A DNA stretch of 64,000 nt from assembly GCA_964016885.1 (NCBI GenBank), contig OZ024760.1:6138001-6202000 (forward strand), in the 5' to 3' direction. The stretch comes from Eledone cirrhosa (taxonomy: Eukaryota). Numbering within the stretch: position 1 is the stretch's first letter; every line of letters begins with the position of its first letter. This document shows, one piece after another, positions 24,916 through 28,920 of this stretch. Under the pieces are notes generated by a model, which saw only the letters and a list, made by a program, of their open reading frames with translations, was not told the origin of the DNA and ran no database searches. The translations under genes were made by a program, and so were the position numbers.

Positions 24916-25225
24916 GTCTTGAATTTATGGACCAGAGATTCATTTATTTCTTCACAGAAATACTTTGAGAAGAAGAGAAGAGATAAATGTTTTATTGTAC
25001 GCTATCTAGATTGATATTTTCCCTCCCAGAGTTCAAATCCCACTGCGAAGACAGATTTGTTCATTTTTTTTCTTTTCTGTTTTTCTTTATTCATCTGAGA
25101 TTGAGAAAATAAGTAACATTAATATATTAAGGTCAACACAATCAAATTATACTCCCTGTAGATCTATAGGTATTGGCAAACAAAAAGAAATCAATATTTT
25201 ATTTAGTAACACACTCTTAGACTGT

Positions 25226-25323
<98 letters not shown>

Positions 25324-25390
25324 GTGTGTGTGTATGTATATATATATATGTGTGTATGTATATATATATGTGTGTGTATATGTATATATA

Positions 25391-25435
<45 letters not shown>

Positions 25436-25522
25436 ATGTATATATATATGTATGTGTGTGTGTATGTATATAAATATATGTGTGTGTATGTATATATATA
25501 TGTGTGTGTATATGTATATATA

Positions 25523-25571
<49 letters not shown>

Positions 25572-25636
25572 ATGTATATATATATGTATGTGGGTGTGTA
25601 TGTATATATATATATATATATATGTGTGTGTATGTG

Positions 25637-25667
<31 letters not shown>

Positions 25668-25786
25668 GTGTGTGTGTGTGTATATATATATATGTGTGTG
25701 TATATATATATGTATATATATGTGTGTACATATATATGTGTGTATATATATATATGTGTGTATATATATATATATATGCGTGTGTG

Positions 25787-25818
<32 letters not shown>

Positions 25819-25895
25819 ATAGAAAACAAAACGAGGAAGTTTAATTTACATATAAAAGATATTTATTTACATGTATCGACCTGTTATGCGCGTTT

Positions 25896-25954
<59 letters not shown>

Positions 25955-26103
25955 GATGATGATGATGATGTATATATATATATATGTATGTATATATATA
26001 TGTATATAAACATATATATACATATGTTCCTTTAAAGTTTTATTGTTGCAACAATAAAATTTTAAAGGATCACCAGTCTAGCCTCCTGTTATTTTAATCA
26101 AAC

Positions 26104-26159
<56 letters not shown>

Positions 26160-26165
<6 letters not shown>

Positions 26166-26562
26166 TGTATATATAGTGTATTTTGCAATACACTGTATGC
26201 TTAATTAAAAGCATTTCGAAGACCTTATGCTATTGTTTAAGAGTAGTGACAATCTCACTTACTTTAAATTTTCAGCAAACAGGGGGAGATAAAGCTGACA
26301 GAGCTATGTTTCGTACTGATTGGTACTTATCAAAGCCAAGTACCCCACCTGTCTGCTGAAAATCATGAATGTTTGATTCTTATAGAATTTCTAGTAATAA
26401 TCAGGAACTGATTATACAGAGCGGTTGCCGGTCAAGCAGAAATTGAAAAGTAAGTGAGTCTGACACTACTCTAAAACAATAGCATAAGGTCTTCGAAATG
26501 CTTTTAATTAAGCATACAGTCAGTGTATTGCAAAATACACTATATATATACATTCATATATA
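26160..26562 (-). mobile_element. Element of about 400 bp with about 105-bp terminal inverted repeats and an internal hammerhead motif, inserted in (TA)n
   Basis: Arms 26160-26265 and 26447-26562 are reverse complements (gtgtattttgcaatacactg...gcatttcgaagaccttatgctattgtt). Confidence 0.8.
26293..26337 (-). ncRNA. Minimal type I hammerhead ribozyme, U3-A8 variant
   Basis: Minus strand: GGCT-TTGATAA-GTAC-caatca-GTAC-GAA-ACATAG/CTCTGT-C-AGCT; GUC cleavage triplet and near-palindromic stem III. Confidence 0.6.
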
Positions 26563-26591
26563 TATATAGCTATTTCAGAGCGCCAATTCTA

Positions 26592-26646
<55 letters not shown>

Positions 26647-26649
26647 TGA

Positions 26650-26870
26650 AGGCGTGTGGCTGAGTGGTTAGAGAATTGGATTCACAATCTTGAGGTTGTG
26701 AGTTCGAGTCCTGGACCGTTCGATGCGTTATGTCCTTGAGCAAGACACTTTATTTCACGTTTCTCCTTCTACCTGGAGTTGCGACCGATAGATAGTAGTA
26801 GCAACTGGAAAGACCAATGGAAACATTGTTTCCTCGGTCCGATTTGACGAAAGTCGATCGATCCAAAAAT
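26650..26870 (+). mobile_element. tRNA-derived SINE with a CORE-like domain and a different tail
   Basis: A box tggctgagtgg, B box gagttcgagtcc, tccttgagcaagacactttatttc. Confidence 0.7.
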
Positions 26871-26926
26871 ATATATATATATATATATATATATCTATAT
26901 ATATAGCAGGGTTCATTGTGACATGT

Positions 26927-27830
26927 AGGGCCCTGTAGAAACAGTAGACAGCTTCTGCTACCTAGGTGACCGAATTAGCAACGGAGGTGGGTGCTCAGAA
27001 AGTACAATAACTAGGGTAAGAACGGGATGGAAGAAGTTTAGGGAACTACTACCACTGCTAGCTGCAAAAGGCTTCTCCCTCAGAATGAAAGGCAGACTGT
27101 ATGATGCGTGTATACGAACAGCGATGTTGCATGGTAGTGAGACCTGGGCGCTGAAGGTGGAAGACTTACGTAGATTAGAGAGAAACGAAGCCTGCATGTT
27201 CCGATGGATGTGTAACAGTAATATACGTGAACGACAAAGCATAAATGAATTGAGAGAGAGACTGAGCATAAGAGGAATCAAATGCTGCGTGCAGGAGAGG
27301 CGGTTACGCTGGTATGGACATGTGATGCGTATGAAGGATGACAGCTGCATAAAAAGGTGCAGAGCACTAGAAGTTGATGGAAACCGCGGAGTGGGGAGAC
27401 CCAAGATGACTTGGGATGAGGTGATAAGAGCCGACCTTACCCAACTACACCTCTCAAAGTCAATGACACACGACCGTGACTTCTGGCGTCACGCAGTAAT
27501 ACAGGGTACCCGACCTCCCATGGGTACATGCTGAAGCATATAAACAATATGCCCCCCCCCCCCCCCCCACCGCAAGGTGGTCGTGGAGGTGCCACGGCAA
27601 AAAAGCACCCAGCCCACACTGTAAAGTGGACGTGTAGGCGCCACGAAAAAGCACCCAGCACTCACTGTAAATGAGGTTGGTGTTAGGAAGGGCATCCAGC
27701 TGTAGAAATCAAGCCAGATCAGTTCCTGTATGAGCAAGGCATGGTCAGCCGACCAGACACTGCCCACAACAGGACAACCCGTCTAACCCATGCTAGCGTG
27801 GAAGAACGGACGTAAAACGGTGATGATGAT
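26927..27830 (+). mobile_element. RTE family A, 5'-truncated young copy nested in an old LINE fragment
   Basis: ORF 27085-27534 differs from the C-terminus of the full-length ORF by three residues; full 3' UTR and (gat)n tail; the flanks rejoin to LALAGHVT.HNEP on the minus strand. Confidence 0.93.
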
Positions 27831-27918
27831 GTCACATGTCCAGCTAATGCGAGGCTTTGTCGCCTGATGATGTCAGAAATAGCAAGGATGTTAAACATTT
27901 GCAATTAACCTCCCAAAG

Positions 27919-27919
<1 letters not shown>

Positions 27920-27953
<34 letters not shown>

Positions 27954-28920
27954 GTTTTTACATCTGTTTTTGCACACTTGCATGGGCTGGACGAGTCCTT
28001 CTCACAGCGTCTCTCCACACGCCACGTTCCATCGTCATCTCCTCCGTGAGTCTTAGAGATTTGAGGTCAGCTCTCGGCACTTCTGCCCAAATCTCTCTAC
28101 TGCGGCTTCCTTCTATTGGACCTTTCCCACCACTTCTTCACCCAGCGGTCATCGTCCATTCACATCACATGTCTCTACTTTCTTATACACCAGCTCGGGC
28201 TCTTCTCAAACCCAGTTTCTGCCTTAGTTCATCCAAGCTCTGCCTCACTCTTACATTGCTCATCTAACGAATCATAGTTGCTTCAATTCTCTCCAGTCTA
28301 CGCATGTCCTCTGCAGCTACAGCCCATGTTTCACTACCATGCAGCATCGCATTTTACACACAGGTGTTGCACAATCGTCCTTGTATACGTAGGAAGAAAC
28401 TTTTTGTGGTCAATAGTGTGGGTAGCTCTCTAAACTTCCTCCATTCTATCCTTATTCCAGCTATTATGCTCTCATATCATTCTCCATCCTTTTATATATA
28501 GGAGAAAAACATTTTATTGTCAACAGTGGGAGTAACTCTCTAAACTTCTTCCATATTATCCTTATTCTAGCTGTTATGCTAACCGTTATGCCGTCTAACC
28601 CATGGACGTTAAACGATGATGATGACGATGATGATGATGATGATTATCTCTCCAGTCTACACAGCTCCTCTGCAGTTACAACCCATGTTCCACAACCATA
28701 CAGCATCACACTTCATACACAGACGTCATACAATCGTCCTTTTGTACACAGCGAGAAACGTTTTGTGGTCAATAGTGGGAATAGCTCTCTAAACTTCTTC
28801 CACATTATCCTTATTCTATCTATTATACTCTCTCCAGTCTACACACGACCTCTACAGTCACAACCCATGTTTCACAACCATACAGCATCACATTTCATAC
28901 ACAGACATCATACAATTGTC
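27920..28920 (-). mobile_element. Old degraded RTE fragments with internal duplications
   Basis: Segment ctctccagtctac...acc(a)tgtttcac...catacagcatc at about 28290, 28647 and 28829, homologous to the MLHGSETW region. Confidence 0.65.

What the first reader, a model, noticed from the sequence alone, without database searches (positions are those of the whole stretch)
26160..26562. ORF-less element of about 400 bp with long inverted ends and a U3-A8 covariant hammerhead, inserted in (TA)n
Seen: about 105-bp terminal inverted repeats flanked by (TA)n. On the minus strand the motif reads GGCT-UUGAUAA-GUAC-loop-GUAC-GAA-ACAUAGCUCUGU-C-AGCU. Both core positions 3 and 8 are changed (C3-G8 to U3-A8). 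Known: positions 3 and 8 pair in the active hammerhead, so the double change is compensatory, and Penelope-like elements often carry an inverted copy of their own terminus. An extra helix (ttttcagcaaacagg / cctgtctgctgaaaa) encloses the ribozyme. Inference: a MITE-looking element that is in fact a ribozyme-bearing non-autonomous retroelement targeting AT microsatellites.
Basis: partly seen in the sequence, partly recalled or inferred. Interest (0 to 1): 0.72.

Follow-up and report, generated by a model that had tools for sequence, protein, structure and literature searches.

The report
Penelope-type hammerhead retrozyme, inverted insertion
This is one of well over a thousand copies of a 322-base non-coding repeat that carries a predicted self-cutting RNA motif and was likely pasted in by a Penelope-type jumping gene; it is a new family of a known kind, and its inverted ends are two back-to-back partial copies rather than true transposon ends.

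Summary
The element runs to 26592. It is two head-to-head arms of a 322-bp monomer: a 298-bp arm on the minus strand, which carries a type I hammerhead, and a 146-bp arm on the plus strand. It is not a MITE: the inner junction occurs once in the genome, and arm lengths vary between loci.

The U3-A8 core motif matches 1,405 places. A sister subfamily has C3-G8, and stems I, II and the outer helix change compensatorily between subfamilies. Copies form head-to-tail arrays and sit in (TA)n.

In 43 of 45 classifiable inverted insertions, one arm ends at the internal AT run and the other about 24-27 nt further on. This fits the two internal start sites known for Penelope reverse transcriptase.

The kind is published: non-LTR retrozymes, U3-A8 hammerheads in Penelope repeats, and inverted copies with an optional tail. 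This scan has already noted the same architecture in other families of this and other genomes. Cleavage, expression, circular RNA and the mobilising element are not shown. Verdict: new member of a known kind, modest interest.

The parts
26110..26162 (.). (TA)n target microsatellite on the left; its last 10-12 nt cannot be told apart from the element's internal AT run (end A)
26152..26449 (-). Arm 1: positions 1-298 of the 322-bp monomer, ending at the internal AT run (tail-less end A)
   Evidence: L001 1389-1686; about 96-99% identical to other young copies over the searched part
26269..26362 (-). Type I hammerhead motif with U3-A8 core inside a 15-bp outer helix; predicted cut after C17 (26297)
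26298..26309 (-). Stem III: 3 bp plus a 6-nt loop in this subfamily; a perfect or near-perfect palindrome in sister subfamilies
26175..26214 (-). Two short hairpins (one predicted by folding, one an 8-bp stem with a GNRA-type tetraloop read from the sequence) in the stretch before end A that is nearly invariant between subfamilies; candidate protein-recognition site
   Evidence: 1 of 65 columns differs between subfamilies
26447..26449 (.). Head-to-head junction of the two arms with a 3-nt overlap; unique in the genome
26447..26592 (+). Arm 2: inverted, 5'-truncated copy, monomer positions 185-322, without the hammerhead
26569..26592 (+). Tail between end A and end B, present on this arm only
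26595..26643 (.). (TA)n target microsatellite on the right

Best explanation
The locus is two head-to-head, unequally ended arms of a 322-bp non-coding repeat with a type I hammerhead motif, a non-LTR retrozyme that was likely inserted by a Penelope-like element's protein acting in trans. Shown: monomer, arrays, subfamilies, structure-preserving changes, (TA)n targets, two fixed outer ends paired one of each, and scattered inner ends. Inferred: (1) tandem copies are transcribed on the hammerhead strand; (2) the hammerheads, probably as dimers through the palindromic stem III, cut the multimer into monomers that can circularise; (3) a Penelope RT/GIY-YIG dimer cuts both strands of a (TA)n tract and primes one cDNA from each DNA end, one at internal site A and one at site B about 24-27 nt downstream, on a template that is not broken at the ribozyme site (a circle or an uncut multimer); (4) both cDNAs stop at random points and are joined by short microhomology or filler, which leaves the MITE-like inverted structure.
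For: Family size: 1,405 U3-A8 matches, 14 U3-G8, 118 C3 (91 G8 and 9 A8 among the 100 listed), and 212 with an alternative stem II. A 33-nt 3' motif has 2,788 exact copies.
Monomer is 322 bp with head-to-tail arrays, one of 18 pieces.
Structure: on 32 distinct copies, 96.4% of cells pair and 8 of 28 pairs change on both sides, including 3:8, one stem I pair and two stem II pairs; slid controls pair at 31-46%.
Ends: of 49 inverted loci, 34 have both ends classifiable (32 A/B, 2 B/B, 0 A/A; p = 3e-8). Of 18 further inverted loci from two other subfamily sets, 11 are classifiable and all 11 are A/B.
Targets: 50 of 52 B ends are followed by (TA)3 or more.
Same source for both arms: rare variants are shared in 8 of 7,559 columns within loci against 13 of 371,808 between loci.
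Template not cut: 2 of 126 inner ends fall within positions 150-158, about 3.5 expected, and 59 of 126 arms read through into an upstream unit. Divergence is equal between arms and between tandem units, 5.2% and 5.3%.
Young, abundant Penelope-like elements exist in the genome, and one is fused head-to-head to an array (L029/L064).
Literature: two internal RT start sites delimit the Penelope tail, and both strands are cut and extended (PMC11167929).
Against: No cleavage, expression or circle is shown. No autonomous element shares this terminus: the 3' regions of family A (25 loci) and family B (3 of 15 loci extracted) have no similarity, and none of the neighbouring PLE frames found runs directly into a unit on the same strand.
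Core invariance is partly built in, because most loci were fetched with patterns that fix the core. Double-sided changes are a few subfamily events, and the number of such pairs does not beat the shuffle (145 of 500).
The window's subfamily has a weakened stem III, and its hammerhead fold lies 2.4 kcal/mol above the minimum-energy fold. Locus L040 carries a stem III-breaking change in both arms, so an intact ribozyme may not be needed for each insertion.
No A-to-G strand bias was found (149 against 116, p = 0.18). In vitro, the anole protein showed no strand difference in start site and did not need the ribozyme (PMC11167929). Only 1 of 9 Xenopus retrozymes cleaved in vitro (10.64898/2026.07.22.740005). 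22 of 67 inverted loci had an unclassifiable end and were left out of the A/B count.
Confidence: 0.82

Rival explanations
1. The unit is simply the terminal repeat (pLTR) of an autonomous Penelope-like element, and these copies are its 5'-truncated and inverted ends, with no independent small RNA.
For: Inversion, tail and (TA)n targets are all standard for Penelope elements (PMC8557442, PMC3846280). My search for a parent was limited to flanks of about 100 element loci and two protein families.
Against: Upstream of a full unit lies another unit, not an ORF: 59 of 126 arms read through, with arrays of up to 18 pieces. No PLE frame found near the loci leads directly into a unit on the same strand. 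Subfamilies differ across the whole monomer while staying 322 +/- a few bp.
Confidence: 0.08
2. The element is a retrozyme copied from uncut multimeric transcripts. The ribozyme is conserved for some other step or only occasionally active, and no circle is involved.
For: Read-through fits an uncut multimer as well as a circle. The ribozyme was dispensable for insertion in vitro and unprocessed RNA was the main substrate (PMC11167929). A likely crippled ribozyme was mobilised in L040. No editing footprint.
Against: Inner units are no more divergent than opposite arms, whereas transcripts of aged arrays should give more divergent inner units. This is a weak test, since young arrays are homogeneous. 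Circles are shown for other animal retrozymes (PMC7229834).
Confidence: 0.3
3. It is a MITE or foldback DNA transposon with about 105-bp terminal inverted repeats that happens to carry a hammerhead-like motif.
For: Short, non-coding, inverted ends, TA flanks.
Against: The junction occurs once in 3.0 Gb. Inner ends are scattered over the monomer. The two outer ends differ by a tail. Head-to-tail arrays and compensatory ribozyme changes are present.
Confidence: 0.01
4. One cDNA is made and the inverted arm arises by self-priming or template switching, as proposed for rotifer Penelope elements, rather than by two priming events.
For: Both arms come from the same source sequence. Self-priming is proposed in PMC3846280.
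Against: It does not by itself explain why the two outer ends are almost always one A and one B (43 of 45), nor head-to-head joins with unrelated Penelope-type elements (L029, L071, L099).
Confidence: 0.12

Closest known systems
Metazoan non-LTR retrozymes (Cervera and de la Pena 2020, PMC7229834, passages read; Li, Clavereau and Pollet 2026, 10.64898/2026.07.22.740005, parts 1-3 of 5 read)
   Same: Non-coding monomer of about 300 bp, low GC, one type I hammerhead per unit, monomers to long tandem arrays, co-occurring with Penelope elements.
   Different: U3-A8 core in most copies. Head-to-head inverted insertions with two fixed ends were not in the passages I read ('inverted' has 0 occurrences in PMC7229834). 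Circles and cleavage are untested here, and no homologous Penelope pLTR was found.
Endonuclease-bearing Penelope-like elements: partial tandems, inverted 5'-truncated copy, optional 30-40-bp tail, (TA)n bias (PMC8557442 and PMC3846280, passages; PMC11167929, parts 1-2 of 4)
   Same: Same insertion architecture, tail on one end only, AT-rich targets, microhomology junctions, hammerhead in the repeat.
   Different: No ORF. The tail is about 24-27 nt. The hammerhead has a full stem III and a long outer helix rather than the minimal form.
U3-A8 hammerheads (Schistosoma Cercyon repeats, about 1,300 hits, PMC4209133; natural covariants stated to be active in vitro, PMC3088659; passages read)
   Same: Same core covariation. 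Motif pairs on opposite strands 100-700 bp apart were also noted in PMC4209133.
   Different: Here both core states occur in subfamilies of one element about 10% apart, giving a natural matched pair.

Membership tests
Non-LTR retrozyme | Short non-coding monomer (about 170-400 nt) | tested here: met
   322 bp; longest ATG-started frame 50 aa
Non-LTR retrozyme | One type I hammerhead per unit | tested here: met
   motif and covariation only, Rfam below threshold
Non-LTR retrozyme | Tandem head-to-tail copies and dispersal | tested here: met
   the window copy itself is a monomer plus an inverted piece
Non-LTR retrozyme | Self-cleavage | not testable with these tools
   needs a cleavage assay
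Non-LTR retrozyme | Expressed as circular RNA | not testable with these tools
   no raw RNA reads were available to lay
Non-LTR retrozyme | Lack of LTR, PBS and PPT | not tested
   no PBS or PPT search was run; the arrays are partial tandems, not LTR pairs
Penelope-like element (autonomous) | RT plus GIY-YIG ORF within the element | tested here: not met
Penelope-mobilised element | Inverted 5'-truncated copy, optional tail on one end, AT-rich target | tested here: met
Penelope-mobilised element | Terminus homologous to an autonomous element's pLTR | tested here: inconclusive
   none for families A and B; other families not fully examined
MITE | Fixed, identical terminal inverted repeats and replication as a unit | tested here: not met
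MITE | Fixed-length target site duplication | tested here: inconclusive
   cannot be read inside (TA)n

The most novel reading that the evidence does not exclude
A Penelope protein dimer copies one circular 322-nt ribozyme RNA from two staggered start sites at once, with each DNA end obligatorily assigned a different site. The nearly invariant double hairpin before site A would be the cis signal that lets an RNA with no homology to the element hijack the enzyme. The family would then be a ready-made minimal substrate for the Penelope mechanism, with natural U3-A8 and C3-G8 versions.
Probability: 0.3. Interest if true: 0.6.

Novelty: new member of a known kind. Interest (0 to 1): 0.3.

Why it matters
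It adds genomic evidence that animal retrozymes are mobilised by Penelope machinery, which the papers read propose from co-occurrence and homology. The one-A, one-B pairing of outer ends (43 of 45) quantifies a feature that the literature describes only as a tail often present on one end. It also predicts an asymmetry that the published in vitro system did not see. The subfamilies give natural matched ribozymes (U3-A8 against C3-G8, two stem II versions, several stem III palindromes) for testing whether cleavage matters. As annotation, such elements would be mislabelled MITEs. None of this is a new kind of system.

Tried and rejected
MITE reading: rejected.

Search for an autonomous parent: not found. 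I looked at long-spaced pairs of the 3' motif (4 regions fetched), which were arrays or separate insertions. I also checked PLE frames near loci, family A termini (its ends are about 45-58 nt apart, not 24-27) and family B termini (only 3 of 15 loci extracted).

RNA evidence: no RNA holder listed. This is no evidence either way. Contigs of three runs of unknown kind were laid and show only family variants.

RNA-editing footprint, a lead from earlier notes: not found. Pile-up of inner ends at the cleavage site: not found. Circle against multimer by divergence: no difference, not decisive.

Rfam evalue scan of 25000-28000 returned mostly microsatellite-driven miRNA matches, which are chance. Pfam gave no hit for the whole 1,217-aa family A frame, only a sub-threshold RT hit on a piece. 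Sequence look-up in earlier findings returned nothing.

Paper searches: hammerhead + Penelope-like + octopus gave 1 listed paper, on other clades. Retrozyme with cephalopod words gave no retrozyme paper among the 15 listed of 4,965, which is not exhaustive. The host guess behind those words is recalled from repeat content and was not tested. Supplements of the papers were not read and may list related elements.

Full report
Observation. The quoted hammerhead is on the minus strand at 26337-26293, with U at position 3 (26333) and A at position 8 (26328), inside a 15-bp outer helix. The region folds far better than shuffles (z = -5.4), though the minimum-energy fold is not the hammerhead; the constrained hammerhead costs 2.4 kcal/mol more. 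Rfam sees only a sub-threshold HH9 match. The inverted arms are real, about 105-115 bp.

What it is. A search of the own genome with the central 177 bp found 2,060 candidates; 40 were scored, giving 52 matches, the best 40 at 97-100%. Mapping 80 non-redundant loci onto a natural monomer shows a 322-bp unit that occurs singly, head to tail, and as head-to-head inversions. The window is unit positions 1-298 on the minus strand joined, over a 3-nt overlap, to positions 185-322 on the plus strand. That junction occurs once in the genome even with one mismatch allowed. Inner ends of 49 inverted loci are spread from position 1 to 297. The composite therefore does not move as a unit, and the inverted repeat is a by-product of insertion.

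Ribozyme conservation. Genome-wide exact patterns with the same stem II give 1,405 U3-A8, 14 U3-G8 and 118 C3 matches; of the 100 C3 matches listed, 91 have G8 and 9 have A8. The C3-G8 copies form a sister subfamily about 85% identical over the whole monomer. A further subfamily of 212 matches has two stem II pairs swapped, and another swaps a stem I pair and outer-helix pairs. On 33 hand-picked copies (32 distinct), 96.4% of cells pair and 8 of 28 pairs change on both sides, and one-sided changes give G-U on the hammerhead strand. Caveats: the copies were chosen with patterns that fix most core letters (34 of 43 passed the pattern and one more was dropped), the changes are a handful of subfamily events, and the pair count does not exceed the shuffle (145 of 500). 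The 3:8, stem I and outer-helix covariation was not imposed by the patterns. The stem II variant was first seen unconstrained and then imposed. The centre of stem III is palindromic in several different versions, which fits the dimeric hammerhead described for animal repeats (PMC4209133). The window's subfamily has the weakest version. The hammerhead rod is the most variable region between six subfamily groups (31 of 98 columns), while the 65 nt before the first end are nearly invariant (1 of 65).

Insertion signature. Outer ends fall at two sites: A, in an internal AT run (positions 293-299), and B, at the end of the tail (319-322). Of 49 inverted loci, 34 had both ends classifiable: 32 A/B, 2 B/B, 0 A/A (p = 3e-8 against independent choice). 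In 24 further loci from two other subfamily sets, 18 were inverted and 11 classifiable, all A/B (the B cut-off was 318 there, which decides one locus). Non-inverted loci end at A 15 times, B 9 times, other 2. 50 of 52 B ends are followed by (TA)3 or more, against 13.5% of window positions. The two arms share rare variants about 30 times more often than arms of different loci; gene conversion is not excluded. Junctions show overlap in 21, blunt joins in 4 and filler or gaps in 24 of 49. Inner ends do not pile up at the predicted cut (2 of 126), and 59 of 126 arms read into an upstream unit, so the template was a circle or an uncut multimer. Loci were selected for holding the hammerhead, which inflates the share of long arms.

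Mobiliser. Two young, abundant Penelope-like families are present. Family A has a 1,217-aa open frame, with an RT hit on a piece and nearest atlas clusters carrying RT, HTH_animal and GIY-YIG. Family B has 58,292 candidates. One array is fused head to head with a truncated family A copy, and two with another non-coding U3-A8 family. Neither A nor B shares sequence with the unit, so the mobiliser is unidentified.

Comparison with what is known. Non-LTR retrozymes are defined as about 300-bp tandem repeats with type I hammerheads, expressed as circles, with Penelope elements as the proposed mobilisers (PMC7229834, passages). A 2026 preprint argues they derive from Penelope repeats and found cleavage in 1 of 9 tested. 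Inverted truncated copies, a tail on one end and (TA)n bias are standard for Penelope elements (PMC8557442; PMC3846280). The tail lies between two internal RT start sites (PMC11167929). U3-A8 is reported in Schistosoma Penelope repeats and stated to be active in vitro. Earlier notes of this scan describe the same two-armed pattern in other families of this and other genomes. They prompted the A/B count and the editing test and are not counted as support.

Verdict. It is a new family of a known kind, with a clean quantitative end-pairing rule and natural core covariation, but without functional data. Interest 0.3.

Noticed in passing
L071:1771-2625, L099:2918-3590, L088, L089, L011, L056, L142: A second U3-A8 hammerhead family, with no coding frame seen and two outer ends about 62 nt apart. 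It is joined head to head to the 322-bp unit in L071 and L099, which suggests two different RNAs in one insertion event.
   Followed up: partly
L005, L008, L067, L097: Another repeat family whose end resembles end B of this element over about 20 nt; possibly a shared start-site signal.
   Followed up: partly
L126-L128, L101-L125: Young autonomous Penelope-like family with a 1,217-aa open frame containing an asparagine-rich stretch and a cysteine linker (Neptune-like by recalled motif), a minimal hammerhead and apparently three outer ends.
   Followed up: partly
G000:C2:208895103-208908049; L097; L099: Long arrays of the unit: 20 listed core matches over 13 kb on C2, and 18 pieces in L097.
   Followed up: no
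window 26645-26870 and 26929-27531: A tRNA-like short repeat and a LINE-like coding fragment directly right of the element; labels are recalled, and Pfam gave no hit for the frame.
   Followed up: no
run X5 (organism B): Five low-depth contigs match the unit, one with a C3-G8 core variant. Too thin to claim presence in a second species.
   Followed up: no
L014:1492-2433: Units share variants in a patchwork that points to local duplication after insertion, so arrays can grow in place.
   Followed up: partly
L096:2553-3084: A transposase-like frame (Tc1-like by recalled motif) lies between pieces of an array.
   Followed up: no
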